A DNA stretch of 64,000 nt from contig NW_021836126.1 in assembly GCF_006345805.1 (NCBI RefSeq), positions 1 through 64,000 on the forward strand, read 5' to 3'. Below are positions 5,560-51,939 of the stretch, piece by piece (positions within the stretch are counted from its first letter, which is position 1; every line of letters begins with the position of its first letter). This stretch comes from Octopus sinensis (lineage: Eukaryota). Position numbers and translations under genes: made by a program. A model generated the notes under the pieces. It had not been told where the DNA came from, did no database searches, and saw only the letters and a program-made list of their open reading frames with translations.

Positions 5560-6101
5560 CGGTGTTGCAATGGAGGACTCATGGACGACGTCTTTGAATA
5601 TATCATACAAAATCGAGGACTTGATACTGAGCGTGAATATCCATACGAAGGGAAGGTAGAATAAATTTTTTTTATTTGTTGACTGGAACATGTCGATACG
5701 TCGAGAATACTCTGACTGTGGTATCCTATGAAGACATCGAAAAAGGGTCGAAAGTTCAGCTTCAGAGGGCCGTTGCAAAAATCGGACCCATTTCGGTAGG
5801 AATTGACGCATCCTATAAATCTTTTATGCATTACAGCGGGGGTAATTTTTGAACTCTTATATTTGCAGGGATTTATGATAATCCTGACTGTTCCTCTTCT
5901 GAATTGGATCACGGTGTTTTAGTAGTTGGGTACGGTGTGGAAGATTGGAGAGATTTTTGGCTTGTGAAAAATAGATCTGGTATCTTGTCTTTACAATTTA
6001 GTTGGGGTCCATCCTGGGGTGAGGAAGGATATATCAAAATGTCTCGAAGTAAAAACAACCAATGTGGAATCGCTAAAGCTGCAAGTTACCCTGTTCTATA
6101 A
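5560..6101 (+). pseudogene. 5'-truncated cathepsin L-like protease fragment
   Basis: [68 protein letters not shown]; catalytic Cys region absent; frameshifts. Confidence 0.8.
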
Positions 6102-8500: not shown

Positions 8501-9383
8501 TCAGTAATTAGCTTAGCTATCTTTTCATTTCCTTATTGTTTTGATGGTTATTGTGAAAAAAAGATAGATAGATTGGATGTTTTATGTCACAGTCGGATAA
8601 ATGGACACGCGAATAAATGGACACTTTCAAAATTTCATTTTTGAGCAATATTACCATACAAAATACATGTTAATTTTTTCTAAGTCTCACTTTAAACACA
8701 TTTTTAATAATTTTGGTACCTGTTGAAAAAAGCAGGATCTCGAAAAAACCAACATCCCACTGACCAACAATTTTTATTGAATATCGAGAAGTCTATTTGA
8801 TTTTTGGTTAACCATTAAAAAATAATGATTTAAAATTGTAAATAAATCGGTTAAAATTGAGATAATAATTAAAATTTACATTAGAAAATAGAAAAAAATT
8901 TCTAGATTCCATTTAAAAGCTTCGTCTGCTCCTAACCCTAACTCAAATCTTAAACAACTAACCATAACCCTATCAGGGCTTCCAATTCTTTAAAAAATTT
9001 AGATGAAAAATTTTAAACAAAATCGTTAGTCAATTTTTGTAATTCTTGATTGTTTTCACCATTCTCATCTTCGATCAAGTACATGTCATTTTGTTGATCT
9101 ACCACAATGTTATTTGTTGTACATAAATCTTTAATAAAACTCAAAAATGAGTACAGCTATGAAGAATAATATAAATTCTGTGCCACCGAGGTTCTTTTTC
9201 ATTTTATTAATTTTTTGGTAAACCCAAAAAATCAAATCTTAGGTGCCTCTATTTGCATATTTTACGATTCTTGTTGGTTTGTTCACTGTCTTGTCTTTAT
9301 TTACGCCTTTATTATTTTAATAATGATTAATCTTTCATAGGTACAAGCTCATATTTTAAATGAACTGCAACGGGTAAGTAATC

Positions 9384-10417
9384 ATGTACTCTAAAACTAC
9401 AAACAGCCTCTCTCAATTAAGTAAACGGAATCTCAACATTGATCCTTCCTTTAATGAGCTACCAGCCAAGAAAATCCACCGGAATCCAATTTCCAAGTCC
9501 TTAAATGATAAGGAAAACTACTGTTCAGGACAGTTCATAAGCCTTCATCCTAAACCTGAGAGCAAGCAAACCAAGATCATAAAATTGTGGTTAGAGATTG
9601 AGTCCAAGCACTGTCCTCCAAATTCCTTCAAGCCCTTGAACGTGACCTGTTATGCAAGGGCGAAACTGATTCACTGGCTCATGAAAGTGACCAAAACTTT
9701 TCAACACGACCGGGAAATATTTTACCTTTCCGTTGATATTTTGGACAGATATCTTGCGTTGAGTTACACTAAAATGTCTGAACTACAACTTGTTGGAATC
9801 ACTTGTCTCTTTTTGGCAGCAAAATTCGAGTCTGACGATTTTTGTTGTGTGTCTGACTACTCTGGCATGACAGCAGATGCCTTTACTTCCAAAGATGTGA
9901 TTGCTATGGAAATTAAGATCCTTTTTGCCTTGGACTGGGCGCTTCAAGTCCCCACTCCTTTTCTGTGGCTCAAGCTGTTTTTGCAGTCATATTTCTCTGA
10001 CGATATTGATATTCCAAATTATTCCCAGTACAAGCTGATTCAGAGTTCCAAAGTATTCAAGAAGTGACATTTTAGCTGCTAACTTATGTCCTGTTGGATT
10101 CAGTGTCTGCTGAATTTCCGAGATCAATGCTGGCTTCCGCAATTTCGGTGGTCCTTATGAAAATTGTCAGACCTATATATAAGTACGAGCAGTTTTGCTG
10201 TGGTTATGATCTGCCTAAACTGACCAATTGCATTGCTTATGTTTTGAACGTTGTTAAACCTCATTTGGCATCTTTGTCAGCATTGGGACATGAGGCTTTT
10301 AGTTCGCGTGAGAGTGAGAATCACCATAATATGCAGGATTGGGATGATTCATATGTCAGCAGAGAGGTTGGTGGGTTATTCCTAGTTTTTTAGAAATCTG
10401 TCTGTTTAATCGAGTGA
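9384..10417 (+). CDS. Cyclin E-like G1/S cyclin (2 micro-introns)
   Basis: Cyclin box RAKLIHWLMKV..REIFYLSVDILDRYL..LQLVGITCLFLAAKFE; 23-nt intron gtattcaagaagtgacattttag joins the two ORFs; C-terminal HNMQ resembles cyclin E HNIQ. Confidence 0.8.
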
Positions 10418-11100
10418 TATTTGAACTTTACTTTTGTTTTAATACTTCTTTGTGTTTCTTTTAGAATTGAATTTATTGCTGTTTTATTGATTTATGTTGA
10501 ATATCGACCTTTAATTGACAGTGTCCTGTGATTAGCAGTTTATTCGGGTTATTAAGATTTACTTCAAATGTCATCTGCATAATTCAATTTGCAAGTACAA
10601 ACTTCAAATGGCATCTGCAAAACACAAACTTCTAATTGCAATTAAAAATTTCAAATTTACAATTTTGAAATTCAAGTTTGCATTTTATCAAAATATGCAT
10701 TTTAACCTCTTTTGCATTGAAAATTAAACAATGTTGAAGCAGGCATTGCACTTATACAATGTAAGTTAGAGCCTCTCGAATTTAGAGTAATGACAAAAGA
10801 ACGAGATCCTATTTTTGATCGTTCTCAAATTCACTCCAACAGTGGAATTCACTCCGAGAGAGGAACATAGAGACTGCCAATTTAATTGGTATTTAAGAAA
10901 TTCAATCTATTTTGCGTTATTATTTTAACATAATCAGTTAATTGCTACAATCATCGGAAATAATCTAAAATCGGACTGATTTTATTTATATGTAACCTAT
11001 TCCACACAATGTTCTTCTGCGACGGATTGGGTGAGGAAATGGACTTGTTTTTTTGTCCCAAAACATAAAACCCCCCAAATTCGGTCACTAGTGAACATTC

Positions 11101-11140
11101 TGTCACAGTCCCATTCTGAAATCCGCCCATTTTGTTACCT
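11101..11140 (+). repeat. 40-bp terminal inverted repeat (TGTCAC..), partner at 57659-57698
   Basis: tgtcacagtcccattctgaaatccgcccattttgttacct; 39/40 identical to the reverse complement of 57659-57698. Confidence 0.9.
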
Positions 11141-11459
11141 GAATAGAGCAACAAGGTAAAGTAAAATAATATATTTATAACATGATTTAAAATTGAAATA
11201 ACTTAAGTTTTCCATTGAATCCCATAAAATAATTTATAAGTAGACCTTAATAGAAAAAGTAAAATCAATGAATACTGAACGCTAATTTGGTTTAGGTTGT
11301 GAGGGGGTAATAATTTGACAGATCTCATTGGTATTTCTCGTTTCAATCTCTAAAATTAGGTCTTCTAATCACAAATGAACTGTGCAGACAGGCTTGCTCC
11401 TTCAGAAGATTCTTGTTTTGATATTTTAATAAATTATGAAGCATTTAGATTTTTCTCAC

Positions 11460-12100
11460 TATTCTAAAACGATGATTGTATCTACACTTCTTTACTTACA
11501 AAATACCCAGAAGAGTAATTTTCCTTAACTTCGTGGATTGTCATTCCGAATATAAATATATTTTCCATCCCAACCTGTTCGGCCATTTCTACATTGGGCC
11601 CATCAAACGTCCCCAGAGTGACAGCCACGTTCAACTGGCAATAAATCAACTGACCAACCATAAATTTCATGTTTCCTGTTCCAGACGCTTTAGTTCCTGC
11701 GAGTGAGAGTTTTTCACTCAAATCAGCTGCAGGGACCATTTTCTCTGCAAACGACTTTTTATAATCCGGAAGGACAAACACTCTCAGGTATTTATTGGTC
11801 TCCGGATCACTGTTTACCACAACAGCCACATTGCATATCAGTTTGATGATGAGTTTTGCAATTCTGCAGCCGGGAGGAGCCTTCCCCCAATTATGACAGT
11901 CCTGGGGACGACAGTGTAGTCATCCAAACCAGCCTTGACCCGTTTGAGGCGGTTGTAGAGCGTTATTATGTGAAGGCAGCTTAGAAGGTATCGTTTACTT
12001 TCTTGAATTGGTTTGATATGCACATCAAACATGGTCGAGGGGTCAATCGAGAATCCTAACAACTTTTTAACATACAAAGCAAATTTATTTTTATTACTCT
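11460..12100 (-). pseudogene. Glycogen phosphorylase internal fragment
   Basis: MFDVHIKPIQESKRYLL (canonical KRIHEYKRQLL), [41 protein letters not shown]. Confidence 0.9.
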
Positions 12101-12111
12101 ATGACATTTTT

Positions 12112-12630
12112 TTTGAGTAGATCCAATATAAAGTTGAGGAACTCGTGTGCGTCGTGTTGTTGTCCCTTGGAGTAGGACACACAGTTCTCGGCTAAAAAGT
12201 CCTGGCACTGAGTCATGGTCATACCCGCACTCCACTCATCTCACTCTCCTCCACCATTAGACTGTGGAATAGTTCGCACAACACTCCCTTTTTACACCAT
12301 CCAAAGTAGTACATCAGTCTTCTCACAATCAACAGACATTGCACCACTGAGTTTATGAAACATGTATTCCCGATATTCTGCAGTCCTCGCGGGCTGTGCA
12401 CTGCCTCGTTCTTTGATACTATGCTGCTGTGTACTGCCTTGTTCTTCGAGCTGTTCAATATTTTGTCGAGGATATCGTCCAGAGTGGGCGATTTGGTTGA
12501 GTTGAAGGACTTTGGACTGATTGCGGGGAATGTGAGGAGCAGGACTCGGACGGAGAACATGTATTTCCGAGCAGTGCCTCCATTCGTCCGGCCGTCACAT
12601 CCTCTGACGAGTGAGTATTGGATTGACAAG
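12112..12630 (-). pseudogene. Ubiquitin-specific protease (USP) fragment
   Basis: Cys box GLQNIGNTCFINSVVQCL and QQHDAHEFLNFILD; no His box. Confidence 0.85.
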
Positions 12631-14030
12631 ACGACCTGACAGTGAAATTAATGCACGTCATGTCCCTCAACGACTACTTTGCATCCCCCAACATGACATT
12701 CAAACAGCAATGGTTGTCCTCTCTGTGGATTGCAGACCAACTACCTCACATTGCAATACGAGTGTTGCATTAATAGCAATATGGCCGGCATCCCCAAGGA
12801 ATACAAACCACCCAAACTCGTGAGGTCATACTTCACTTGCCTGAAAGGCAAGCAAGGACGTTTTCGGAATAACGGGAAGAGGGTGAACTACACGGGGAGG
12901 ACTGTCATATCACCCGACCCGGAATAGACCAAGTGTCAGTCCCCCATGGCGGAGACGTATCCCGAGTATGTGATGGACACCAACATTGAGGAGTTGAGAA
13001 GACTAATAGTGCGGCGGCAACACCCCTCTGCTGTTATGATCTACAAGGCGAATGGGCGATCAGTGTAGGGGGACTGTGTGACTGTAGTAATCTGCGGTAC
13101 GGGGACGTGGACAGAGGGCGTGTGGTTTGCGAGTGGGGGATAGAGTGTTGAGGCATATTAGGGGATATTGTCAATCGACAGCCTTCTCTCCACAGGGAGA
13201 GTATTCATGTGAGGACTGTCTTGACATCGTAGTTCAAGATTGGCAAGCAGAGGACACTCCGATTTAACGAGTGTTGTTGCACTCCCTTCAATGCTGACTT
13301 TGATGGAGACGAAATGAACATTCACGTCCCTCAGGGCGAACAGGCAAGGAGTGAGGCACTCCTGTTGATGGGTTCCACGTCCAACATGATCTCCCACAAG
13401 AGTGGAGAGCCTTTGACGGCAGAAATACAGGATTTCATTAGTGGTAGTCCCTCCGCTCATTCCAGGCCTGTATTTGCTCACCAGGAAGGACGTGTTCCAA
13501 CCCCAAGTAATCTCACTGTTGAATGCAATGAGGGGGGTCAACAAAGTGTCCTCCAGTCCCCCAATCCGCCATTCTGACACCGGTCACTTTTTGGACTGAG
13601 AAGGAGATGATGAGTTACCTCCTCAGTCACCCCACTGAGTCGAATCAACACATCTCCGTCAACATCCAGGCCAAAGGGAAGAGTTATTCGGGCAATGAAG
13701 AGTTGTGTGACTCGTGTTGGCAAGTAGTGTGATGGGTAGACTGCTACATTGACCACTCGGAATTGATTCGGACATTCTCGACAAGAACTCGCTCGGCTCG
13801 GGAGTAAAACAAACATTTTCTACTACATCCGACGAGAGTACGGGCCTGAGACGACTGTCCAGTGTATTGCCCGTCGATTGGCCGGGGCTTTTTTGAGTAT
13901 TTGGTGGTTGACACGCGCAGTGCTGAGACTTGGTTTACTGTGAGGTTGGCGGATGTCGTGCTCGGCCTCCAAGTTGTTCCGAATCGGGTAGGAATTGGTT
14001 TTGAATGTAGGAATGGCAAGTGTTTGGAGC
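12622..14030 (+). pseudogene. POLR3A: RNA polymerase III largest subunit fragment, decayed
   Basis: [73 protein letters not shown]..NIFY; many small deletions. Confidence 0.85.
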
Positions 14031-14490
14031 CCGCGGCCAAAGACGAGGGGAAGGAACTCAAAAAACGGTACGCCGTCTTTGATCACATCAAAAAACTGGT
14101 GGAGCTCAAAGTTTGAGTGTCAATTCAAAGTTATTCAGGGATTTGAAATAAAACGTCGCGGGGAATTGGAATTGGTCAAAAATTTTCAATCATCGATTTT
14201 CCCCGCATTATTGAATGGGGATACACTGGAAATGGCGCTTGGGAGTGCTGCTGAGGTGGCCAACCGATGTCTTTTATACTCAAAAGTATATTTTAAATAC
14301 TTTTATTGTTTGGGATCGAATTTGACCAACTCTGAACTGTTTGACTTGATTACGGAAAGTAGGAACATGTCACGGAATTTGGACTACCGCAAAGAGACTG
14401 GCCGACGTGCAGACTTTTAGTTTTTTGTAGATTTTGGGAGATGAGATGACAAGTCTGGCTGGACTGAACTGTCGTTATGTGATATCGCGG
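14031..14490 (+). pseudogene. POLE: DNA polymerase epsilon catalytic subunit fragment
   Basis: [20 protein letters not shown]|intron|[52 protein letters not shown]. Confidence 0.9.
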
Positions 14491-14510
14491 TATTGGTGTC
14501 ATATTGTCAG

Positions 14511-17500
14511 AGATTACACGTTCGGGTCATTTCACGTGGTTTTTCCATTTAATTACAACTTTGATGCCTGTTTTGTGGCGGTAGTTATTATTGTGAGTGT
14601 TCAGTTGAAGGACGCCTTTAAAATAATGAGGATTGTCCACAAAAAGTTGAGAAATGTCCCCGATTCAGCCCCGACGTTGATGAGTGACTTGAATATCAGC
14701 ATAAATGTGCGAGTCCTTATCATTCCCAGCACTTTTCTGTGGTATTCGAGGACGACCCATTCGAGAACAGGATATTGAGCAACTTCAGAGTAGGGAATAA
14801 GTCATATTCCAGTTACTGAGTGATGAGTTTGTGGAAAAGGTGCAGAGATCAGTCATTCTGGAAAAACAACTGCAGGAAATGGGGGCAAGCATGTCGAGTG
14901 AGTGTTGTGTGTCATAAAAGTCGACAAAATGGATGAATTGTACGCCACAGTGGAGCAAAAGAATTCCTCCGCGTACATTGAGCGGGTGGGGATTCACCGT
15001 CGGCAACAAGAAGGGATCAAAACCCTCTGTCGGATCAGTCTGGAGGGGGTCTCTTTCAAAGCCCTGTCAGACCCCTCCGTTTTTGGGGAGGATAATATTC
15101 TGGGGTTTATGAAGCGAGTGGAGCCTGAATGGTGGATTGTGTGAGCGAGGAGTAGTTTTGACGGTGGGGAGACATCATTCAGCACTCTCTTTGTCGTTAT
15201 GTCATTTTTGAGTTTGACGAAATGAGGAGTGCTCTCCGGGACTATTCCGTGCCCCTTATCGTCTGGAATAATTGTCGATTTTGGGGACTGTTGAGAGGGG
15301 CAGAACTGACGGGGGCATATTTGAGTAGATTAGTGTGCCTACTGGTAGAACAAGTCGTCATTCCATTCGGGGATTTCGAGATTCGAAAGTCACTGTGCCC
15401 CCTCAAGTATTTCTACGACCTCGATTCGAGTATTTGTATACGTGGATGGTAGAGTCGGGGCAAGTGAGAGTGGCCTACGGACCCAGCATCGAGCCTTCGC
15501 TCTAATTTTTCCACTGCCTTGACTTGATAACGTCGCCCAGTCGAGATTGCAGTCCCAAGTTGAGTTGGTTCGACATGTTCCGCTACGTTCTTCACGGAAA
15601 TTGGAGAGCCCGACTAAAGTTATCGTTGATGTACCGCCTTACGAATGACCCATACAACTCGGCTGAGTTCATCGAGTGGTCCTGGGAGTCTCTCGTGTTT
15701 GAGAACACATGTGGTTACTCTCATCAGTTCATGGCAGGGAAGTTTGTGTTGAACGGAGACTTGCAAATAAACTGCAAGACTGCCTCGAATTATGACGATT
15801 ATCGACTGGTGCATATTCCGAATGCCTGCTTTGAGTGGTGTTTTTTGGCTGAGTGGTAGGGCCAAAGTCTCCTGGATATGTCCTGGTGATGCTTACGGTG
15901 ATTCCAATCCACCGGAAGTACGTCGTAGATGTTTTGGTGAGAATATTTGAGTGATGCAGACACACAACACATTTCGGGCTTTCAGGTCGAGTGGGATGGA
16001 TGTCAAGTTGAGTATTTCGAGTAATGTTTCTCTCTCGTCTCTCAAATTCTATTCGGGGTCAATTAATTGGATATTCGACATTATTGCTGTTTTCACTTGA
16101 CCACCTGTAGACAACAATCCAACAACTCACCCGTCCGATCCGCCTGGGTCCTCTCTTTGGACGACCATTCTACAAAAGAATACAACTTTCTCGCCATTTC
16201 AGGTGATATATTCCACTATGAGTAGAGAGTTTAACATTGCTATGAATCTGGACAGTTTTGTGATTGAATACTGGATGACGGGGGAAATGGTGGATGGGTA
16301 CAACTAAAGGGGGGTTCCGTGTCCTTGGACAGTTGCCTGGACTACTCTGTCCTCCCCCTCCAAGGGAATGTACTCAGACGACCAGTCACTGTGTGGAAAA
16401 TCAAGTCTTTTCATTTCATACAGGAGAGGGTCAACGTTGACTTGTTCGGTAATAAACGTGATGAAGCCAATTTTCTGATTAAGTTTGACTCGTGAGTGTT
16501 TTTGGTTACGTTTTAGACTGCGATATTACCACTCCCCCATCGAGACCAGATTGTCTCCCCCCACCGCCTCCACGGAGATCGAGTCAACCTACCAGGCATG
16601 TAGTTATATTGACATTCAGCACAAACACAATGTAATAGTGAAGGACACTGTGGTGAGGTGAACTAACGAGAACAGAGCCGTATTTTATGAGTTGATGAAT
16701 CACTACCAACGAGGGGTCATTCTCCGCCGTAATTTACTTTCGGGGATAATCTCCTGCATTAAACGACACGAACAGGAGGTGGTCGAATCCAGAGAGGAGT
16801 TGGTCGAGCAGGATGAGTGGACTCCGGACTTGTTGGAGCGACTGGTGGCCGACGTGGAAAACAAGTTTTACGTGACTGGAGACGTAGTGATGGAATGTGT
16901 TGATTGGTAGACACAGACATGTCTGGTGGATGATCTGTCAGGACCAAAGTCGTGTGGAAGTAATGATGTGACAAGTCGGAATTGTTTAGGTGAGTGGACT
17001 GACTGAGTGCAGTCGAATTTAGGAATGTCCAATTGAGTTTGGTGGTCCAATCGGGCTTCATTATGGCTGTAGCTAGGAAAGCCCAGTTCTTCCAACGTGA
17101 GCACGGATTGGTGTGGAAGAACAACGTTCTGAGGTCGAAAATAAGTTGGATTGGGACTATCGACTCAATGGAGGTGAGTGGGCCATATTTATGCAGTATT
17201 TTGCCAATGCGAACGAAGGGGGCAATCTGGAGAGAATAGTGTCGAGGTGTCGTTGTGACATATTCTACTCGTCCTACGCGGCCATCGAGGAATTGTTGGT
17301 GAGTGATGGCCAGCCTCCCTCCGAGGACGAGGACAGTCTGGAGACATTCACAATGCTTCACCACGACCTGTCAATATCGACTAACAAATGGCAATATTCG
17401 GTGATTATTGACATTGTGAACAACCTCCTTCTCTACTTTGACCCCGAACGTAAAAGGTCGTTGGACAGACTGCAGGAAATGAGACTTCAACTCGACTTGT

Positions 17501-18783
17501 GTACACTTCCGGAACACCTTAATCGTATATTCGAACTGAAGAACGTCCTCAGGTCTGTTTGTATTGACAAGTGCAGAGAGTTGGCAGGGGAGTGGAGGAA
17601 ATTGGAGAGAGAGCATTACTTTCTGGTTCGTGAGCATGGCGGGCGGTGTGAACTACTCACCAGACTGAGGGATCGAATCAAATCTACTCGAAAGGAGTTG
17701 TACAGCACAAGTCAAGAATTGTCACATATGTTGTGGTATCAGTCCTCCTTGTTGTATTCTTAGTTGCTATAATAAGAGGAGACATCAATTGCTAGCACAC
17801 TCACTGACCCTCCCAGACCTCACTCCCCCACTTCACACCCTCGAGATATGTTTCAAGCACGCAGAGTGGACTATCACTCATGACGATAGTCAACTCAATG
17901 TCATTATCAGCAACTTTCTGTCATTTTCTGTCCTGGCATGATTAGATATAACAAAATTGGGTCTGCAGACGACACCAAGTCACATTTACTTCACTTGGGT
18001 TGGTTTAAGGTGTCGAATCTGCATCCCAACTCGTTTTACAGAGTTGTGTCTTCACTTATTCTGAAGGACGTGATTATTCCTACGGACGAGGAGAACCCAT
18101 CTGCCCACAGTCCCTCAGTGCGGATATACTGTCGGGAGGGAGTCCCAGTTGGGGGAATATCCATGAAGGAACATTTGGAGATCAATGTAGCTCCCACATC
18201 CGCCTACCTCACCTATGACTTTTACTTGTTGGTGGTTCAATTCTTCTTCAGTCAGTCATCTGGTGTGTCGATGAGTTCATTTGTAGGGATATCCATAAAG
18301 AATAAGCGGAGTAAGGAGAGTGGGTCTACCGAATATCGGGACGACGTGACTATCATGAAAGTACCCTCCCCACTCACCCCAGGACAGGGCAGCCTCCAAC
18401 ATGCAGTTTGTGTACGTCAAGATCACTCAAGTTCCCCTTCTAATTAGTTTTAAGGTTGTTTTGTATCGATAATTTTGCAGAGTTTGGATAACAAGTTTTT
18501 GGAATTTAGCAACTTTTCCATCACAATTCCAACATTGGAATACCACGATCGAATGTTCAGTTGGTTAGATCTGTTTATGTCTGTCAAGAATGACTATCAG
18601 AAGATGATTGTGACTCATGTGACTTAATTTTTCCTTAAATCTATAGGCTATCAAACAACGACTCAAAATCAACAGAAAGGGGAGTCCCCGTGTTTCTCAT
18701 CCCCAAAAGCAAGAAGACAAGGCGAGAAGGCTTCTTGGACTCGATGGAAATAAAAAAAAGAAAAATTTTTTAAAAAGAAGTGA
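14511..18783 (+). pseudogene. BLTP2: Bridge-like lipid transfer protein KIAA0100/hobbit, 5'-truncated, with in-frame stops
   Basis: HFSVVFEDDPFE, PLKYFYD, SPKLSWFD..LHG, IIDIVNNLLLY, GGISMKEHLEINVAP, FVYVKITQVPLLISFK, PTLEYHDRMFSWLDL; stops at 15503 (TAA) and 16659 (TGA at a conserved Trp). Confidence 0.85.
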
Positions 18784-19036
18784 GTATTAACGAGTGAAAT
18801 GAAATTATTTATTGTCCTTGCCCATTGGACGACCAGAATATTCCTGTATGTTACATGCATACAGTATGTATGATAACATGTTAAAAAGAGACCTTAGATA
18901 AGACTTCTGTTTTAAATCAAGTTGGTTATCATTCCTACCTTGGAATATATCGTGGATTTGAGAATTTCTTACGATTTGGAATTAAAAGACATTAAATATA
19001 ATGTGGCACGTTCTACAAATCCTAATAGGGATGTGT

Positions 19037-20708
19037 CATCATTAGGGCAATTTTTTTCAGGCACTTAAAATTTATTTTTAGGACCTTAAAAATAGGCATT
19101 TTAGGACTTTATTTTTAATTTTTAGGACTTTATTCTACATTTTTAGGCACATTTTAATAAGGTATTAAATCAAAAAGTCGTAAAAAATTATTTGTTATAG
19201 TAAGGTATTAAATAATTTTTGACATTTTCCGCATTGAAACCTCTATCTTTAGTAATTAATTTTTTAAGCATAGAAAATGCTCTTTCAACGGTTGATGATG
19301 TACACTGACATTTTCTTATTAGTCCATATTCTTCAGGGGAGATATTACTTTTCTCCATTTCTATAATTGATTCTATGTCATTTTTGTGTAATCTTTTTTG
19401 TATGTATTCATTTATTTCTGCATTATCAGACGGAAATTTTAACAAACAAAGATCTGAATGTGCATCATTTATTGTATAACTTGTGGATTCCATTTTTTTC
19501 AATATTTGATTAAGTATCTGATAATTTTCATTTATTTCCATTAGACTTTTTCTTAAGGTTGGCGATTCAATTGCTTGTTTTACTTTTTAACTAATATTCC
19601 GTCGTCTTTGAAATTCTCCACAATTTCAGCAATTGATACAAAATTATTTGCATAATAGTATGCTGCTTGCAGCCAACTACCCCATCTAGTTATGATGACG
19701 TCGGGCGGATAACCAATTGTAGAAAACATTTTTTTTCTAGTTTTGTTTTTCACTATTGATGTCTTTATAGTCGCAATAAGATTATCAACGTCCGAATAAT
19801 ACGCCTTTACTCTGAGACAGCAATTATGTAACAAATGTGCAACACATGTTACATGGAACATCCTAGGATAAAGCATTTTCAATGTTTTTCCGGCTAAAAA
19901 TAATTCAACAAACTACCCAAAATCATATACGGGGCTGCATCAGAAAGAAAAAGAAGAAAATTATTGCGTATAATCTCGAATTTTTTAATCTCTTCATCGA
20001 TAATCTGAAGAATTGTGTTAGCAGTTACAGATTCATATAAAGGTTCACACGAAATTAAATAGGTCTTCTCTGGATAAGCGATATTCCCAATGAGAACAAC
20101 TACAAACTTCTGTCCATTTACGTCACCCTCGTCAACAACCATAAAAATCTTTTGAGATCTAAAATCTAAGGATTGTTGAATAGGGAATCTAAGGATTGTT
20201 GGAATCCTTCATTGTTATCTAAAAAAATAATTTTAAATTACTCAAAAGCTTTAGATGTTTTGTAGATTGTCTATGCTGATCAATATAATATTTTTTTGAT
20301 GCATTGACGTAGATCATACATATTTTACAATATAGACTGCCTTTAATCACTGTGAATTCTTTTACGTAAGTTTCATAGGCTTTTAGAGCTTTAGACTTTA
20401 TTGTAGAACGTACACGTGGCATTTGAACACAAAAAAGTAATTTATAGCGTGCCTAATTTGTTATTTTTAAAATATTTTTTTGTAACATTTAAAAATAATT
20501 TATTTTAAAAATTTTTAAGACCTTAAAAAAATTTTTAGGACCTTAAAAAAATTTTTTAGGACCTTAACAATTTTTTAAGCATTTAAGGCATTTATAACTC
20601 GTTGTAGATAAATCTATTTTAATTAAATTATAGCTTAAATTAATTATTTAAATAAATAGACCTTTTGGTGCAAAAAGGCATTTTAGGCAAAAAATTGCCC
20701 TAATGATG
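19037..20708 (-). mobile_element. hAT-like (CGGBP/DUF659-type) DNA transposon
   Basis: TIR catcattagggcaattttt / aaaaattgccctaatgatg; subterminal ttttaggaccttaa repeats; Zn finger LYCKIC..QHRQSTKH, SDAAPYM, HVTCVAHLLHN, TRWGSW, VERAFS. Confidence 0.9.
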
Positions 20709-20840
20709 ATAAAACTGAATTGGATCTGGAGTAGCAAGGATGTTTCTCTCAAGACAAAGATAAGACTAGTCAACGCGATTGTGTTTCCCGTTTTTCTCTA
20801 TGGCTGTGAATCTTGGACACTGTCCAAAGCTCACAGCAAA
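20709..20840 (+). mobile_element. RTE-type LINE fragment
   Basis: IWSSKDVSLKTKIRLVNAIVFPVFLYGCESWT. Confidence 0.75.
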
Positions 20841-21540
20841 GAGCATATTTATGTAATTTTTCTAATTCGGTTTGCTCGAGTCTCTCTTGCGATGTAATTC
20901 CCGCTTCAATTATGGAAACCTTATTCTTCAACTTGTCGTAGATAAAGATATCAGGCGTATTGAACTGAACTTGAGTATCTGTCAATTTTAATGTGTCCAC
21001 CTGTATCTCGACATTTTGCGTCAAAAACTAGATTGTACTGAATAGGACATTAATTTCCTAGTTTTCTTTATTTCAAACTGTCTGCAAACGTGCATATCGA
21101 TGCATCTCAAAGCTCGTCTGTATCTTCTTACATAGTCACTGTTTACCATTCTGTCACACCATGTAACCATCTGATTTACTGTCTTCTTAGTTTTATGCAA
21201 TGATTACCTACCACGCCCAGAAAAGAACACATTTCTATCTTGTAAGGAGTATTACAAAGCTTCACTTTTGCTGCATTGTTCCGTTTGTCCAACCACTCAC
21301 TAGACATCTACAGTAGTATCCCATTCAGATCTGAACAAAACAAAATGAAATAACTTGTTCTTAATTTTGTTCAATAAATATTGCATATGAGAGAGATTCA
21401 GAGAGATTTGCCAGTTTATGAACTCTCAAAAATCATAAGTTGAAAAATTGAAGGACGGTGAGCAGATGTATGCAGATATCAGACTACTTCGCCTTCGACA
21501 GCAAACAAAGCTGTAGACTTTTTGTTTCATGACAATTCGA
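20841..21540 (-). mobile_element. Second R4/Dong-like RLE LINE fragment
   Basis: Similar to 1942-2740 (QVQFNTPDIFIYD, GITSQERL). Confidence 0.8.
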
Positions 21541-22428
21541 CATTCGAAGAACTGCTAAAAATTATTTTTTACGCACTGAAAAGATGGTTTTTGAATGTAA
21601 ACTTGAAAAAAACTGAATATGTAACAATTGACCGGAAGGCAAACAGAACAGACGAGAAAGGTGAAACTCGAAAAAATTAGAACACTGCTAGAAGATAGCG
21701 AAGACATTATGAAAAGAAAGATGCTGACGACTATTACATTTAACGATCTGCGGACCACATGGTTACAAAACCGCAGGGTTGGAACGGCCTTACTTGCTAA
21801 GTTATGCAATGCTTTTGTTAAGCATACAACGGAGGAACATGGGGGACTTCTGAGTCTGAACTAAAATTTTTCGATGCGTTCACAAAAAACAGTTAAGACT
21901 TCTTAACTGCCCTGCCAAAGAAAATAAAAAACTCCACTCTATTTAATTAATGACATTTCGGCACCCGAGGATTGAATCGCTAAAGAAGTATGCGAAGAGA
22001 ATTCAAAGAACATTAGATTCTGAGATCACCTAGCCTAGTTAGCTCAAATTGCTTTTGTGATTGTCTTGGGGTTCATTAATAATAGTTTTTCTGGCAGAAA
22101 ATAGGCTGAGAAATTGTGAAATCTAACTTGAAAAAAGTTCTCCAAAATATTTTTTAGCAAAACCTACATGTAATAAAATGCAGATAAAATATCAAAAAAT
22201 GTTTCCTTACAGTTAAAGCGATTCAATTTGATTTAAAATTCATAAATTTGGCAATAAATTTAACATTATCAAAAACTGCCAAAACTCGTTAAACTGTAGA
22301 TTTTGAGATAATTTAAATCAGACTTACCCTAACATAAAGTTTTGAACCGTTTCGGGAATTGAAAATTTTACATGAAATAATTTTTAGGTAAAAAAACTAA
22401 AGATATTAAAAAATTGGTACTTTTAGTC

Positions 22429-22728
22429 CATTACTTTAGAGCAATAAAATCATTAAGAACAAGCAAAAACAGTCTCTTTATGATTTTCAGGAATCCAATT
22501 CAAATTAAATGACCCAAATAAAAAAATATCAATTCGAATTTTCTAAATTTTTCAAAAAATCTAAAATTATAAAACTAAAAGAATTGCTCAAATAAATCAT
22601 AAAATTAGCTATTATTTCATAGAATAAATTTAATACATTACTTTAGAGCAATAAAATCATCAAGAACAAGCAAAAACAGTCTCTTTATGATTTTCAGGAA
22701 TCCAATTCAAATTAAATGACCCAAATAA
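22429..22728. repeat. ~92-bp direct duplication; spacer has an inverted copy at ~24201-24292
   Basis: cattactttagagcaataaaatc...gacccaaataa occurs twice; 22523-22615 is approximately the reverse complement of 24201-24292. Confidence 0.8.
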
Positions 22729-24553
22729 GAGTATATAATCCCAATTTTCCGACCTTTCATAATGATTTTCAATTTTTTAATCTGTCAGGCTCTTTCCACA
22801 AATCCGTTAATCTTTCAACCTCGCTCCACATGTTCAATATTTTTGTTATATATTATTAGATGGAAATATGAACATGGAGTGCACCGTATTGATACTTCTT
22901 TAATAGTGTAGATACAAAACGTCTATTTGTTTGAATATTTTGTTCTCAAGTTGAATTTAACTTTAATTGATAACAATATTAAAATTGTTTGTGGGGTACT
23001 TACTTTAGTTATAACTAATTTCAGAAAAAAATAGTCAATTTGATTAATACAACAGGCCCTGATTTTGGTAAATTTATTACTCTTTATATTTAGTGCCAAG
23101 TGGAAACAACCTTTTTCCTCTAGTATATTATATATTGAGATCTTTAGGAAAACGCTTTGCATAATTGCGTATCTTACTTATATCGTAATCTTACGCGGAA
23201 AGGATCATTGACAGAATATGAAAATATATTAATGATAATCAAAGTAATCAGTCATATTTATTTCAGAACTCTTATGATTCTTTATTTAATGAATGTCAGG
23301 GTCATTTAAGAGTTAATACATTCACGACTCAAATGTTCAATTTTTATAGGCAACAAATAGAAAATATCACAGTAATATCTTGATACTAGTGTAGAACGTC
23401 GTTAAAAACCATACACTATACAATGCTAGAACGGACAGAGCTTATCAAGAAATATTGGTCTTGTGATGTTTTTAATGTTTTAGAATTTAGTATATAATAA
23501 AATGAATGAACTTGCTAGAGCTGTAAGATCTTTTATGCAAAGTAACTAGTTTTGTGACTTTATAGCTCAAAATGAATATATTTTACATTTATTGTTATCA
23601 AACAACCAAGAACCGGTTTCTGGGGTCTCTCGAAATCGTAATAGCCATTTTCAGAGGTTATAAATTGATCATATCTATACTCATTTAACACGGGGTTAAC
23701 TATAATCATTTAAAACAATGTTTTTGGTGAAAAATATTCTTTTTGAACTATAAATAGCTTGTAAGGATATTCAGAGAGGCTTATAATTCTTGTTATAAAC
23801 GATTTTTGATTGTTCAATATAGTTGGTTAAGAAATCATCAAAAAAAACTAGCTACTATGAACTGGCTCGCAGGATTGAAAGACAATTCCAGCGTAAAACA
23901 GCTAGCGAGATCCTCTGAATAAGGAATATAAATTCCCTCGGATCTCTGGAGCGGTGGGTGCACAAGCGGCCGAGTTTCTTGAGATGAGCAAGCGTCTTGG
24001 CCCAACGATTTTTTGATAAAATAATCACAAAGGTTCGTTTTTTTCTTTAATATATTGGGGTATGGATTTTGACAGGCATTTACTTGATCATCATTTTAGC
24101 ATTTTTGAGGCAGAAAAGGCTTAATTAGCAAATTTAATTTTTTGAACTTTGAAAATAAAACTGCGACCACTTCGACAAAAGTACCAATTATTTTATGAGT
24201 TAATAGCTAATTTTATGATTTATTTGAGCAATTATTTTAGTTTCATAATTTTAGCTTTTTTGAAGAATTCAGAAAATTCGAATTGATATTTTAAAAATTT
24301 AAATTATGTGTTAATAATTTTAACAGTATATCTCTTTTCTTTCTTTATTTATTGAAGATAATCTCAAATCGCCTTGATGGTTATTTTTGAGATGAATTTG
24401 AATATATTTAACTTGCTTTGTGGTGGTTTACTCAGGCACTAGAATAACACAGAATGGGTGATTTCTGTAGATGCGTTTTAGCAAAAGCTTTCTTTGCATT
24501 TTCTTTAGCAGTTTAGAAGTTTCCTCTGAGCAGGTTTGAATATTAGCTTTAAT

Positions 24554-27426
24554 CAGGCATTCTCAACCTTTTTTGTTCATCGCCCCCTTAGATATTTTTT
24601 GCCCCCTTGTTCACTTACAATTTAAAAATTTTTGTGCATTGTTCCTTAATTGATTGTTTTTTTGTAAAATTGAATTTTTATTAAAAATTATTAGTGAGAC
24701 CCTTGATATTAATGTTTACTCGCTAAATATTCAATGTCGGGTTTAATTCTGCTCAACTTTAGGCGTATATCCCCTCGATAACACACTTTCAGTCTATTTC
24801 TTTCACATTGTGTGTTATGATTGATAAAACTAAATCCATTTTCAGCTAAATAAGTGGTAGTGAATGTCAATACTACATTTCTTATTTCCTTCCATAAATT
24901 TGGAAATTTCATTTGTTGATCTTTTGATTGCCAAAATTTAGAGATACCATCCTGTTGAAATCTGTGAATATATTCTTCATTATATTTTGATTCAATTATC
25001 TCTTCTTAGATTGTTTCGTTCTTATGTCATAATATTTTTGTAAAAATTCAATTCAAATAGAATATATCAATTTTCGTAAAATGATCTCTTCAACCAAAAC
25101 CAGGTCTTCTTTAGTCTGCAAAAATGCGACTATTGCATTTTAAAGATTAACAAATTTTAACACAGATTAACATTTCCTTTTGAAATCCATCTTACTTTCG
25201 TGTGTAATAAAAGTCGAATAAAATCTTCATCAATATCCTTACAAAACTTTCTAAAAAGACGATCACATTTTCTTTGTGTTTCTATTTTGTTAATTGTTTT
25301 GATTACAATGTTTAAAGATTGATGTACATCATAACATAAAATCTTCGATACCTGTGGATGGTTCTTTTAAGATGGAGTCTAAAAGGCACAGAAAACTAAC
25401 ATCTTTTTCGCTACTCTCGTTTAATGTCTGAGGAATCGCTAAATCTTGGAAAAGAACAGCATTGTGCAAAGATCTGAAAAGAAACAAAGTCTCTGTTGGA
25501 TGTTTACAGGAGACAAAACTGCATGGAGGATTAGAAGAGGAACTGTCGGGCTATCACTTTATCTAATTCCGAAGTGAATGCAGACACTTTGGCCGAGGAT
25601 TTGTAATAAAGAAGGAATTGAAACCAATGGTTCATCTCTTTTGGAGCATAAATGATCGGATCTGTGTACCTCAGATCAGCATGAATAAGCTTTTCCCATC
25701 TAAAAGCTTACTATCCATTATAATCGTATACGCACTCCACAGTGGATGGATTGAAAATGACCCTACTGAGATAGACTTGTTCCACTCTTGCCTGTCTGAA
25801 GCTTATTCTGAACTTGTTCACTCGTCAATAACTATCATTGCTGGCGACCTTAACGCCAAAGTGGGATTACGAAGAAACCTTCATGGAAAAACACGGGAGG
25901 GGAATAAGGAACGTGGCAGGAACATTACTTGCCGATAACTATAGGAAATGCCTTGATACGTATTTGGGAAGTGTGGAAACAAACCAACCATTCTTCAAAC
26001 TTGGGGGACAAATCCAGGAATCAATAAAAGGAGCAGCGGAGAAACAGCTCATAGACACAGAAATGGTTACCACATCACCAAATGGAACAACTGAGATATT
26101 CTTCTTGTGAAAAAACAAAATATCTATTTGGCTACAATATTCAAGTACGGAGGACAAGCATATCAAAGAAAAACGTGGTCGGGAAAGATCGAATATTAAG
26201 AAGAAGATCAAGAAGTGGTGTCCTATATGTCAAGTAAGGAGGCTGAGATACAGATCAAGGCCATGGAAGTCTTGAAATGTATTATGAGGCGATCAGATTA
26301 TTACGAGGACGTAAACACAGACAACCACTAATCATAAATGACAGACGAATTGCAGATTCCGCAGAATTAGCAGAACTAATCGCCGGCCACTTCGATAAAC
26401 TGTTGTTCCACCATTCAAATGTTCAAAAATGCGACATACATTCTTGGCTTTGATATGTCAAGAGCTTTTGACTCGATTAATTGTCAGAAATTAATGGAAG
26501 TCCTCGCAGGATTCCTTGATGAATCTTCTATCCGGATGATCAGAGCACTCTTATCAGAAACCTATCTGTCGGTCAGGGTACGAGACAAGTGCTCTAAACC
26601 ATTTGAAACAACATCTGAAACACCTCAAGGGGATCCGTTATACTGTTTGTCATATATCTGGAAGCTGCATTGAGAGAATTAAAAACCATACTATAAAGGA
26701 AAGATCAATGTGGTGGCATACGCGGATGACGTGGATTTTATTCCTTCCGACAGGGACGCTCTGGAAAGTCTACTGGAAATGATGCCAAACAGACGAACAA
26801 GACGTGATTATGCGAAAAACACATGCAAACAGTGCACTACACAGCTTAAAAGAAAATTGGCTAAAACGCAAAAGACTCAGCATAAAAACACGGATACGAC
26901 TATACAATTCACTAGTGAAGCATATACTCCTATATAACGCCGGAACTTGGGAACCTTCCGCTACAGACAATGACAACCTAGACTCTTTCCATAGAGATCA
27001 CCTCCGACGTACTCTAGCCTCCAAGTGGCATTCAAGGCTGAGTAGCAAAACAGTTTCATCAAGCAAACAAATCTCGCTCGAAATTACCGAATCCAGATGG
27101 AGGCTGTTTGGACACATTCTAAGGATGGATTTGGATGCATCGGCAAACGCCGCTATGGAGGACTATTTCGAAGCTGGGGGGCATCGTTTCCGTGGGCGAC
27201 CAAAAAATACTCTCTCGAGTACGCTGGATAGAGACCTAAAGAGGGCTGGTAGAGAATTGAAGAACGAGGACGATCTCGATGCACTACGGGACGTCGCCAA
27301 GATCGCGGGAAATGGAATAAACTAATTACTCGTATTGTTTCCTGTGCTGCACAAGCTTTGTCATGATCCATAGCATCGCAAAAGTGCCTATAATAATTAT
27401 TATCGCCCCCGGGTTGAAAACACCTA
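24554..27426 (-). mobile_element. hAT Buster/Charlie-like transposon remnant interrupted by an RTE LINE
   Basis: Left end caggcattctcaacc..atcgcccc, right end atcgcccccgggttgaaaacacct; C-terminal FTTTYLAENGFS..RNRL..DIRLKLSRIKPDI. Confidence 0.7.
25355..27400 (+). mobile_element. RTE-like LINE (APE + RT), decayed
   Basis: CLQETK, IIAGDLNAKVG, FDMSRAFDSI, PQGD, YADDV, RWRLFGHILRM, RGRPK; (taa)n-like tail. Confidence 0.85.
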
Positions 27427-28361
27427 CTCTATACCATATCTGAAACCGTAGACCCATCACTATGGATCACCGAAGCTTGTTAGCGCCTATTCTGCACATA
27501 ATCCGCCTCAAAAATATATTTGAAATGGAAAAATTCTGATATCCGTCATTTTTTAATTCTAATATCCGCCACAAATAATCAAAGGTTATTTAATCAACTC
27601 TAGAAATTTTGACGTTAATGGTGTTATTTGATTAAATGAATAAGTAAGACTCATTTTTGGCAAATATGAGAGACTTTACTGTATAGCGTTTTCCCAGCTT
27701 TAAAGTAGAAAGCACAAACAGTAGTGTTAACTCTTCAAACATTATTATTGCCGACGAAATTTTATGGAAAATGATTCCATATTTATTCATCTCTGCAAAA
27801 ACAAATGTTTCTGCTATTTACTGGAGGCACTGTCTAATAAGGCGAGTTTTCAAAATTGGCTCTTCCATTTTTCACACGCGCACAAACTGGAAATATTTTT
27901 TGCTTAGTTCAATAGTAGTGTCAATATTTTGCCTCGTCAGTATTTTTTCAATTTGTTTTACTGTGTGGTGAAAGTCTTAGACACCTGTTAATAGTACTAT
28001 CTGATATTCAGAAAACAGAATGTTTTTTAACTTTGATTTGTCAGTAATAGACTAAACTAAGAATTTATTGCTTGTATAAATCATTCAATTTGAAAAAATA
28101 ATCATTTTCTCCATTGACAAAGTATTCGGCTTATGGAGATTGAGGCATATTTAATAGTCATTTATTTCTTTTTAGATTTTCTACTAATTGAGCGTTCAAC
28201 AATCAGTTTTTTGACTGCAAGAAATATAGTATTTCTTTTTCGTCGATTAATAGCTCTTACTCTAACACACAATTTCCCACATAACATCAATGCCTGCTTA
28301 TATTTAGAGCTTTGACAGTAATATTTCTCAACAACAACCCAGAAATAAACAAGAAAAAGAA

Positions 28362-29074
28362 TTATCGATTATTTTTACCAGCCCGTTCAATTTCATCCCT
28401 ACGTTTGACAGCATATGAATTGGTAGTGTTCTAGGGGATGGTGAGAAGAGTGACCTTGTAGGCATTGATGACCTCATCGGCGTAGCACTCCACGATTGTC
28501 TTCTGACTTCGGAAGGCTGCCTTCCTGGCACCCACAGCAATGTTATAAATGGCCTGATTCACTCGGCGGAGAGGGGACACGTCCACCGACTGTCTCCTCA
28601 CACTCCCCTTCCTCCCGATCCTCGTCGAGTCCTCTCTCGGCCCGCAGTTCTCGATTGCCACAACCAGCACTTTCACCGGGTTCTATCCTTTAAACACATT
28701 TCTGACTTCGTTGAGGAGGAGGTTGATTATCTCCAAGGCATGTTCCACGATTTTCATGGCTTTGAGCTTCTTTCCGTTATTCCTTCCGTGTCTCATCAGA
28801 GAACAAACACACCGTTCCACGATGAAGCAACTCGCCTTCCGGAATTTCTTGACTTGGTATCTGCCTGCACTGTGGGGGACGAAGGTCTCCAATAATTTGA
28901 TGTATGGCTGGGTTTACACTCCACAATCAACCATCAAATGAATCTCCACTTTTACTTCATTCACGTCCCATTTACCAAACAACTTTACACGTGTGTCCTT
29001 GGGGGACTCGACCAACATTTCTGTTTGAGTATTCTCAATGTCTGCCTATTTGTGTTACTTAAATGCACCACCAT
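28362..29074 (-). CDS. RPS5: 40S ribosomal protein S5 (uS7), 4 introns of 24-26 nt
   Basis: [58 protein letters not shown]; GT-AG micro-introns restore the frame. Confidence 0.97.
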
Positions 29075-30344
29075 AACTCAGATACTATCACGTGAATATT
29101 TATTAATTGTTTTAAATGTATTTATTAAAACTTGTCATAAATAATTAAATAATACACGATTTCTTTGTCGTTTAATTTTTTTGAGATTGCGATTCGAAAT
29201 TGGTGGTTGGTTTTCCTCGTTTCGAAATGATCTGCCATTAGTTCGTCTTATAGATTGAAGACTTTTAGAACTTCTGCTTTTACCGACGGGGTTTAAAATC
29301 TTGCATCGTTATTGCGGGACTCAATTTTTCAGGCGAAGTTTTGATGGCTGTTCTTTTCTTTCGCAGTTTGAACTTTAGTCAATAACTTTTTGGATTTCCA
29401 ATTTTTGTTTTCCTAAGATAATCCATTGCATCTAGTTTTTATTTAATATGGAGAATTATGGAAATAGAGTCGTAACTAACTTGGAGACAGAGGATCAAAA
29501 AATGGTGTTGGTTACTTCCTACTCTAAAAGGAGTAGATTTACCTCTAGCGGACAAGGTCGGATTAACATCAATTAAATAATACTAACTTTACTATTTTAC
29601 TTTTTCTTTTCTGATAAAATAATGAGTTTAATGTTAATCCTTTAATTTTCTGATATTAAAGTTTTCCTGATTGTTATTACTTGTATAATCAACATCCAAA
29701 AACAAAATTTGATGGTAGGTAGATAAATAACTAAGAAGATAGTTGAGAACCTAACGGTCACTCAACGGTAACACCCATCAGATCTAAGCGGTCGGACTCG
29801 TTTGGCAAGATAACAGTCCTCGGATGGTTGACCCTTTCTCCGATGTGTTAAAGTAATTCACACAAATAAAGTTAATGGCAATTTAGAATCCCCTTGTGCA
29901 AGTTTGCCTTTAATTCTGATTGATGGATGTAACACTGATTAGAGATAAGAAATGTAACAAGGAAATATCCGAATAAATAATTAGGTTAGTTAATTAGTGG
30001 AATTTGAATATTTGATTAAACTCCATCATTTCCGCATATCATATTTATTGAGGAATAAGAACAGGAGTTGCAATCTATTCTGAGTAAACTAACCCACCAT
30101 TTGCTTGCTCAAATATTACTGTTGCCTCGTGAAATTCACTTGCTTCTATTTGCAATCTCTTTTCTGTAAATATGTTGGGAAGCGTAAACACCACAGTTGA
30201 CGTTTTCGAAATCCTTATATGAGAATATTTAACTATATATTATGGGTTCAGACTTTTCTGTGAATATGCACATTTTCTGCGTTACATCAATACTACACAG
30301 TAAATAATTTAAAATACTAAATTTTTAGCTCACGACTGAGTTCC

Positions 30345-30540: not shown

Positions 30541-30619
30541 TTTACTTAAATTAACAAAATAGATAATTTCTTAAAGTAAATTATTCATATAAATAAAATA
30601 TAAAAGCGTTTGTTGTGAT

Positions 30620-32620: not shown

Positions 32621-32692
32621 TAAACTGACTGAATATTTTTACTGTGGGCAACCAAATAATTGAATTGGTAATAAAATAGATTGTTAGTGTGA

Positions 32693-51920: not shown

Positions 51921-51939
51921 TTATTTAATTGAATTCTTA

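What the first reader, a model, noticed from the sequence alone, without database searches (positions are those of the whole stretch)
11460..18783. 7.3-kb patchwork of five unrelated host-gene fragments with introns retained
Seen: pieces of glycogen phosphorylase (-), a USP (-), POLR3A (+), POLE (+) and BLTP2 (+) abut with little or no spacer. POLR3A runs into POLE at ttggag|cccgcggcc, and POLE runs into BLTP2 within ~20 nt. Each piece is truncated and carries stops or short deletions, and micro-introns are retained, so capture was at the DNA level rather than by retrocopying. Inference: Pack-type or Helitron-like gene capture, or reintegrated rearrangement products (dicyemids are reported to form extrachromosomal circles and eliminate DNA).
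Basis: partly seen in the sequence, partly recalled or inferred. Interest (0 to 1): 0.75.

Follow-up and report, generated by a model that had tools for sequence, protein, structure and literature searches.

The report
Nested mosaic of dead gene copies
Broken, intron-keeping copies of five housekeeping genes are fused end to end here while full-length donors sit elsewhere in the same genome; in what is likely a tiny parasite sequenced with its host, they were likely pasted one inside another by DNA-break repair and then duplicated as a block, a known kind of genomic junk rather than transposon capture.

Summary
The patchwork is real. All five pieces have full-length donors on other contigs of G000 (1.8-3.9% substitutions), 29 of 29 modelled introns are kept, and three of four junctions recur on two further contigs, the fourth on one. 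Junctions are blunt or carry 1 or 7 filler bases. No element ends or target duplication bound the block, so Pack-type or Helitron capture is not supported. The 7.3 kb is part of a ~54-kb block present in several copies that also holds cyclin, cathepsin, RGS-kinase and further POLE pieces. One POLE copy was cut at one point: one half follows POLR3A here, the other lies ~21 kb downstream on C12461, out of order. POLE pieces are older than BLTP2, so capture was stepwise. Best reading: repeated end-joining insertion into earlier duplicates, then head-to-tail duplication and erosion; a DNA circle explains the reordering almost as well and stays unproven. Unexplained: the POLR3A piece loses 5-6-bp stretches about 15 times more densely than its neighbours. 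The scan noted similar mosaics on other DNA of this genome (unchecked notes).

The parts
9195..10561 (+). Cyclin gene copy, open frame of ~344 aa; 4.7% substitutions from G000:C8703:359417-360780. Left extension of the same mosaic.
   Evidence: a spliced contig of run X2 carries the C8703 letter at 13 of the 13 places checked
11140..11469 (.). Internal chunk of a longer high-copy repeat, joined to PYG through a 4-base AAAA overlap; not an element end
   Evidence: 9 of 9 copies examined run on alike beyond 11469; many more copies
11466..12107 (-). Glycogen phosphorylase piece (aa ~547-751 of an 883-aa model), copied from a diverged multi-copy paralog (C8702 x3, C6303, C12408; 2.6-3.1% substitutions), not from the canonical gene at C8702:~525-528 kb (21.8%)
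12108..12114 (.). Junction 1: seven T bases of filler between PYG and USP; same in window, C12461 and C1200
12115..12445 (-). USP piece with Cys box (USP8/USP2 type; donor G000:C9889:66400-66820; 3.7%); one 23-nt intron kept; in-frame deletions of 24 and 66 bp
12446..14029 (+). POLR3A piece (aa 212-729 of a 1371-aa model; donor G000:C8318:23587-25295; 3.9%); blunt join to USP; 7 introns kept; 16 deletions of 5-15 bp
14030..14493 (+). POLE piece 'b' (donor G000:C10950:54929-55429; 3.7%); blunt, in-frame join to POLR3A; the donor stretch just before it (54278-54924/8) lies ~21 kb downstream on C12461
14494..14494 (.). Junction 4: one filler base; the join lies inside a BLTP2 intron and reads through in frame
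14495..19042 (+). BLTP2 (Hobbit) 3' part, aa 833 to the stop at 18783 of a 2120-aa model, with its 3' flank (donor G000:C9497:435610-431047, minus strand; 1.8%); 18 introns kept; youngest piece
19043..20702 (.). Later DNA-transposon insertion (TAGGG...CCCTA ends, 8-bp target duplication; hAT-like by recalled criteria) inside the BLTP2 flank; absent from C1200 and from the donor; not a boundary of the mosaic

Best explanation
The region is a decaying mosaic of DNA-level copies of ordinary genes whose full-length donors lie on other contigs; it was likely built stepwise by end-joining repair that pasted each new piece into an earlier duplicate, and likely reordered by head-to-tail duplication followed by loss. 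Shown: donors, kept introns, blunt or 1-7-base joins, several copies of the block, two age classes, and a POLE copy cut at one point with its halves now out of order. Inferred steps: (1) a duplicate of the POLE region was broken at donor position 54924-54929 and took up a cathepsin-LINE-POLR3A stretch from the C8318 locus; (2) later, BLTP2 replaced the middle of the POLE copy, and PYG, USP and RGS-kinase pieces were added; (3) the block was duplicated head to tail and dispersed; (4) deletions and transposon insertions eroded each copy differently. It has no likely present function.
For: Donor models are full length: POLR3A 1371 aa, POLE 2027 aa, BLTP2 2120 aa. Junctions 1 and 4 stand in window, C12461 and C1200; 2 and 3 in window and C12461. 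Overlap at the four joins: 7-base filler, 0, 0, 1-base filler. On C12461 the order continues BLTP2 flank, POLE 56749-57397, C7755 pieces (zinc finger, RGS, kinase), a C8845 piece, POLE 54278-54924, cathepsin nearest to the copy beside POLR3A on C8318 (4.9% against 10.1-12.3% for 4 other copies). The stretch repeats ~54 kb further on at 0.9% divergence. All C10950-derived pieces (VPS13, POLE 52926-53150, a, b, c) share one orientation and all but 'a' keep donor order across C12468, C10954 and C1200, as a backbone with nested inserts predicts; a dynein copy nested in a C8703 duplicate on C12468 shows the same pattern. Ages differ: nonsynonymous-site differences 34/1218 in POLE against 31/2994 in BLTP2, p=8e-5. 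Changes private to a copy are near neutral (w 0.50 and 0.66) while shared ones are mostly synonymous (w 0.14 and 0.18).
Against: No empty acceptor site was found, so the insertion steps are reconstructed, not seen. Tandem duplication needs two complementary losses to give the observed order; a circle needs none. The junction between USP and the C8318 stretch was later deleted differently in window and C1200, so the original join is lost. The POLE 'a' end abuts a repeat and can be placed 0-4 bp from the start of 'b'. Age estimates are blurred by donor allelic variation and by a threefold higher mutation rate in the POLR3A piece. Donor models are ab initio and slip frame at a few places, at least one a likely 1-bp assembly error.
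Confidence: 0.6

Rival explanations
1. The block passed through an extrachromosomal circle: a composite circle (POLE a - cathepsin - ... - POLR3A - POLE b - BLTP2 - POLE c - RGS-kinase - C8845 piece) was opened between cathepsin and POLR3A and reinserted, possibly as a multimer.
For: Read as a circle, both the POLE pieces a-b-c and the cathepsin-POLR3A stretch fall back into donor order and orientation, so one opening explains two reorderings. The closing join (C8845|POLE 54278) has 3 bp of microhomology. Dicyemids are reported to make thousands of DNA circles (PMC6543705, passages). The flip A-B/C-D to C-D/A-B is the published mark of circle-mediated duplication (PMC7450558).
Against: Donor ends A and D are not joined directly but ~6 kb apart, with other donors between. 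No acceptor site could be defined. POLE 52926-53150 and VPS13 lie upstream in donor order, which suits a linear backbone. Visible tandem units make a circle and an array indistinguishable; PMC7188851 (Discussion) gives the same caveat for nested duplications. The circles described for Dicyema are mostly under 1 kb.
Confidence: 0.25
2. The pieces were captured and carried by a Helitron or Pack-type DNA transposon.
For: A PIF1-helicase remnant with a 95-bp array lies ~2 kb beyond BLTP2 on C12461; Helitrons transduce flanking DNA by read-through (PMC4778049, passages); introns are kept.
Against: The helicase remnant is nested in an inverted-repeat element that itself interrupts the BLTP2 flank, with 86 bp of donor flank on its far side. 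No inverted repeat longer than 19 bp or with E below 0.7 between the left end and four candidate right ends. The repeat at the left is an internal chunk. Copies share no fixed ends; the block is ~54 kb. Cutting one POLE copy in two does not follow from read-through capture.
Confidence: 0.07
3. The contigs belong to a supernumerary or germline-limited chromosome that collects gene pieces from the rest of the genome.
For: Many donors, amplification and decay match what is described for B chromosomes (PMC6211034, passages); chromatin diminution is reported in dicyemids (PMC6543705, abstract passage).
Against: The same contig carries ordinary-looking genes beyond 20.7 kb (RPS5/S7, 14-3-3, HMG-CoA reductase, POU, NDUFS1-like), whose copy status I did not test. 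No stage- or cell-resolved data were available.
Confidence: 0.06
4. The junctions are assembly errors and the lesions sequencing errors.
For: Contigs carry scattered 1-bp errors; the window changes partner at the transposon at 20702, which could be an assembly switch.
Against: Junctions recur letter for letter on contigs that differ by 0.3-3.6% and by their own insertions. 11 of 15 POLR3A deletions are shared by window and C1200. In run X1 a 168-nt contig crosses junction 4 with 31 letters on the left, and a 61-nt contig crosses junction 2 with 29 on the left.
Confidence: 0.02

Closest known systems
Segmental-duplication mosaics built by duplicon seeding and swapping (primate pericentromeres; PMC2566985, abstract and passages)
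   Same: Intron-keeping pieces from several unlinked loci joined into one cassette, then copied as a block; over 90% identity; later LINE and transposon insertions mark sub-lineages.
   Different: Pieces are 0.2-5 kb of dense coding DNA, so every join cuts a gene; pieces are nested inside one another; chromosomal position is unknown.
Gene movement by double-strand-break repair (Oryza; PMC3615480, abstract and section 10)
   Same: No transposon signature or long homology at joins; short or no microhomology.
   Different: There single insertions were shown against an empty orthologous site; here several rounds are stacked and no empty site was found.
Duplications through circular DNA intermediates (human cSDPs, PMC7450558, first quarter of the text; PMC7188851, abstract and Discussion; tilapia vasa, cattle KIT and yeast clusters as cited there)
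   Same: Donor order flipped at one point with 0-4 bp lost; short indels or microhomology at joins.
   Different: Several donors and ages; ends A and D not directly joined; acceptor undefined; local tandem units offer a second route.
Helitron and Pack-MULE gene capture (PMC4778049, passages; Pack-MULE features recalled)
   Same: Multiple intron-keeping gene fragments side by side, several copies.
   Different: No element termini, hairpin end, inverted repeats or target duplication at the block's ends; no fixed ends among copies.

Membership tests
Mosaic segmental duplication | At least 1 kb at over 90% identity to another locus of the genome | tested here: met
   POLR3A 1.6 kb, BLTP2 4.5 kb, cyclin 1.4 kb at 1.8-4.7% substitutions
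Mosaic segmental duplication | Pieces from several unlinked donors, introns kept | tested here: met
   five donor contigs for the five pieces; 29 of 29 modelled introns kept
Mosaic segmental duplication | Cassette copied again as a block | tested here: met
   second unit on C12461; C1200, C10954, C12386, C12468, C1219 hold parts
Mosaic segmental duplication | Pericentromeric or subtelomeric position | not testable with these tools
   contigs are unplaced
Circle-mediated duplication | Order flip with the derivative's ends adjacent in the donor (B/C) | tested here: met
   POLE a ends at 54924-54928, b starts at 54929; a lies downstream of b and c
Circle-mediated duplication | Donor ends A and D joined inside the derivative | tested here: not met
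   57397 and 54278 are ~6.3 kb apart, separated by a 498-bp repeat unit, C7755 and C8845 pieces
Circle-mediated duplication | Acceptor site contiguous in an empty allele | tested here: inconclusive
   no empty site among the copies found by the G000 searches, which score only the best 40 candidates
Helitron | 5' TC and 3' hairpin-CTRR termini in an AT site bounding the captured pieces | tested here: not met
   left repeat is internal; helicase remnant is nested inside the BLTP2 flank; ends inspected by eye and by BLAST, no dedicated terminus scan
Pack-MULE / Pack-type DNA transposon | Terminal inverted repeats and a target duplication around the pieces | tested here: not met
   no such repeat in the window listing (25 of 42 inverted pairs shown) or in the end-to-end BLAST; the one 8-bp duplication belongs to the 1.66-kb insertion
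Processed (retro) pseudogene | Introns lost | tested here: not met
   29 of 29 kept
B or germline-restricted chromosome | Presence or depth differs between individuals or cell types | not testable with these tools
   only contigs with summed depth were available

The most novel reading that the evidence does not exclude
Dicyemid DNA that is cut out and circularised during development is sometimes ligated into multi-gene circles that re-enter the germ line, so programmed DNA elimination would feed a genome-wide source of nested, permuted gene mosaics; this locus once held a complete promoter-to-stop POLR3A-POLE-BLTP2 fusion in frame at both joins, and its polymerase part was then hit by a local 5-6-bp deletion process that may also be what shrank the introns.
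Probability: 0.12. Interest if true: 0.78.

Novelty: new member of a known kind. Interest (0 to 1): 0.4.

Why it matters
As it stands it shows that a compact, micro-intron parasite genome carries primate-style duplication mosaics, and it warns annotators that such pieces mimic real genes and fusions. It also offers exact junctions for a PCR or long-read test of whether dicyemid circles re-enter chromosomes, and neutral sequence with living donors from which the deletion spectrum (mode 5-6 bp, short microhomology) behind 24-nt introns can be measured.

Tried and rejected
1. C8318 break at 22546/22547 as a second exact reciprocal cut: rejected; the donor itself lost the cathepsin end there and joins into a LINE. 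2. Scrambled C8703 pieces (363-364 kb, 369 kb) as further permutation: rejected; they are retrotransposon RT and integrase. 3. Out-of-order dynein domains on C12468: rejected; the 301-kb piece matches C9002 in order and the 321-326-kb piece has no match in the C9002 stretch fetched. 4. Window cyclin as the native locus for a single-crossover integration: rejected; it is itself a copy of C8703. 5. G-quadruplex or GC content as the cause of the deletion cluster: weak; G4Hunter fraction 0.036 against 0.022 in BLTP2, though the densest 250-bp bin is the most G4-prone. 6. In-frame joins as a sign of selection: 2 of 3 same-strand joins in frame is expected about one time in four by chance; multiples of 3 among deletions 14/25 against 10/33, p=0.06. 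7. Read depth: in X1, junction- or copy-specific contigs had depths of about 18-112 and donor-specific ones about 98-174, but the tool states these are no copy number; not used. 8. No RNA holder was listed; no evidence on expression. X3 and X4 (another study, small shares) showed donor-type loose ends only; X5 laid no contig, which can be false. 9. Junction 3 is crossed by only 5 letters and junction 1 by none among the 8 rows shown of X1 (25 rows not shown). 10. Not run: the search for homologous proteins, structure tools, relatives (none held for G000). Literature: searches 'dicyemid+genome+intron', 'dicyema+extrachromosomal circular+chromatin diminution+elimination' and 'dicyemid+pseudogene+duplicat' listed no paper on such mosaics in dicyemids; subscription papers, including Noto et al. 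2003, and supplements were not seen.
Full report
Setting. The window is G000:C12597:1-64000; G000 has 2.72 Gb in 13,516 contigs. The genes studied here lie on small contigs and have tiny introns: median 24 nt, 84 of 91 at most 30 nt in my models of three donors. Second orthologs at 55-70% amino-acid identity lie on chromosome-scale contigs. Dicyema introns have a median of 27 bp (PMC6543705, passages) and the D. japonicum genome is 67.5 Mb with 49% repeats (PMC6736024, passages). I infer a dicyemid-like passenger assembled with its host; I ran no phylogenetic test.

Observation. Pfam confirms the five families; the polymerase is RPC1 by best PDB hit; the USP is of the USP8/USP2 type. Limits and joins are in 'parts'. 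Filler or overlap at the four joins is 7 T, 0, 0 and 1 T. All 29 modelled introns inside the pieces are kept.

Donors. POLR3A on C8318 (1371 aa, 23 introns), POLE on C10950 (2027 aa, 43), BLTP2 on C9497 (2120 aa, 25) and USP on C9889 model as full-length genes (ab initio, with a few frame slips, one a likely 1-bp error; the USP model is fused to an upstream gene). PYG comes from a diverged paralog with five copies, not from the canonical gene. Substitutions against donors: PYG 2.6-3.1%, USP 3.7%, POLR3A 3.9%, POLE 3.7%, BLTP2 1.8%.

Are the joins real? C12461 matches window 9110-20715 at 99.6% and is colinear back to 1160; C1200 is a 97% copy with its own LINE, its own deletions (one removes junction 3) and the POLR3A 5' end and upstream region that the window lacks. 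Junctions 1 and 4 stand in all three, 2 and 3 in two. In run X1, which may be the assembly's own sample, a 168-nt contig crosses junction 4 with 31 letters on the left; a 61-nt contig with the C12461 letter crosses junction 2 with 29 on the left, short of the tool's bar of 31; junction 3 is crossed by 5 letters; junction 1 is not among the 8 rows shown. X1 also holds the 99-bp deletion of C1200 and a 183-bp deletion seen in no contig I fetched.

The larger block. Beyond BLTP2, C12461 continues with POLE 56749-57397, a 498-bp repeat, zinc-finger/RGS/kinase pieces from C7755, a C8845 piece, POLE 54278-54924 and a cathepsin. That cathepsin is nearest to the truncated one just upstream of POLR3A on C8318 (4.9% against 10.1-12.3% for 4 other copies tested). 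About 54 kb on, the stretch repeats at 0.9% with cyclin, PYG and POLR3A remnants. C10954, C12386, C12468 and C1219 hold further parts. The window's cyclin is also a copy.

One POLE copy was cut once. Piece a ends at donor 54924-54928 and piece b starts at 54929. By my rough count, two of the eight ends of four POLE pieces falling within 4 bp in a 7-kb gene has a chance near 1-2%. So the cathepsin-POLR3A stretch was likely inserted into a POLE duplicate with almost no loss and no target duplication, and a-plus-cathepsin now lies behind b and c. A circle or a head-to-tail duplication with loss both give this. POLE 52926-53150 and VPS13, from the same donor contig, lie upstream in donor order and orientation, which tips me to a linear backbone (about 0.6 against 0.25 overall).

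Ages and selection. Nonsynonymous-site differences are 34/1218 in POLE pieces and 31/2994 in BLTP2 (p=8e-5), so BLTP2 came later. Differences shared by window and C1200 are mostly synonymous (w 0.14 POLR3A, 0.18 BLTP2), private ones near neutral (0.50, 0.66): donors under selection, copies not.

Transposon capture. The left repeat is an internal chunk in 9 of 9 copies examined. The 1.66-kb element at 19043-20702 has a perfect 8-bp duplication on C12461 and is absent from C1200 and the donor. A PIF1 remnant lies inside an inverted-repeat element inside the BLTP2 flank. No terminal repeats link the ends.

Unexplained. Since window and C1200 split, POLR3A gained 41 private substitutions in 2x1229 sites against 45 in 2x4309 for BLTP2 (p=1.6e-7), and it holds 16 deletions of at least 5 bp in 1583 aligned bases against 5 in 7339 for the other five window pieces (odds ratio 15, p=8e-9). 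Over three copies 26 deletions were listed (two are probably one event); 17 are 5-6 bp and 16 of 26 have at least 2 bp of microhomology against 4.4 expected. Eleven other pseudo-pieces show 0.4-8.4 deletions per kb with sizes often 5-8 bp. Junctions 3 and 4 are both in frame and C1200 keeps the POLR3A upstream region, so a promoter-to-stop fusion may once have existed; three shared frameshifting deletions had killed it before the copies split. This is suggestive only.

Comparison and verdict. It works like, and meets the tested features of, a mosaic segmental duplication (PMC2566985, passages) seeded by break repair (PMC3615480, section 10). It meets one of three marks of circle-mediated duplication (PMC7450558, first part of four; PMC7188851, abstract and Discussion). 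It fails Helitron, Pack-type and retrocopy tests. Three searches listed no report of such mosaics in dicyemids; this scan noted similar ones on other contigs (unchecked). New member of a known kind; interest 0.4.

Noticed in passing
window 19035-20710; G000:C12461:398357-400025; G000:C12386:11917-13587: Two copies of the 1.66-kb transposon have swapped flanks: C12461 has GTCATCAT on both sides, the window has GTCATCAT left and ATGATGAT right, C12386 the reverse. Exchange between copies or an assembly switch.
   Followed up: partly
window 20703-33582 and G000:C12597:82412-94000: A tandem duplication with a period of about 61.7 kb at 95-99% identity; the copy at 82412 has the empty transposon site.
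   Followed up: partly
window 12446-14029: Local hotspot of 5-6-bp deletions with short microhomology and a threefold higher substitution rate than BLTP2 in the same copies; cause unknown.
   Followed up: partly
G000:C1794:946-948 kb, 1233-1235 kb, 1256-1259 kb; G000:C12467:142 kb: Four older BLTP2 remnants (8.5-11% substitutions, internal deletions) in another duplicated cluster with PB1- and SRF-domain frames nearby; BLTP2 was copied at least twice.
   Followed up: partly
G000:C12468:264-353 kb: Further nested copies: two eroded dynein heavy-chain copies from C9002 inside a C8703 duplicate, two FARSB copies, a VPS13 piece from C10950.
   Followed up: partly
G000:C8702:647-650 kb, 668-671 kb, 717-720 kb; C6303:707-708 kb; C12408:22-24 kb: A five-copy glycogen phosphorylase paralog about 22% diverged from the canonical gene, with changes in the conserved KRIHEYKRQ stretch (reads KPVQESKRH); dead or re-purposed.
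   Followed up: no
window 5637-5849 and 51016-53069; at least ten places in G000: A dispersed cathepsin (papain-family) gene family at 82-89% identity, some copies split by insertions.
   Followed up: no
G000:C12461:313390-315299 and 335291-339803: Arrays of a 498-bp unit (4 and 9 copies), with similar arrays on at least six other contigs; 92- and 95-bp arrays nearby.
   Followed up: no
window 33823-36130: HMG-CoA reductase gene with a 78-bp repeat region in its middle; 14-3-3 pair at 30634-33477; POU-homeodomain frame at 43280-44005.
   Followed up: no
G000:C2:156540028-156540402 and 156559361-156559732: Two intronless phosphorylase frames (834 and 849 aa) facing each other on a chromosome-scale contig.
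   Followed up: no
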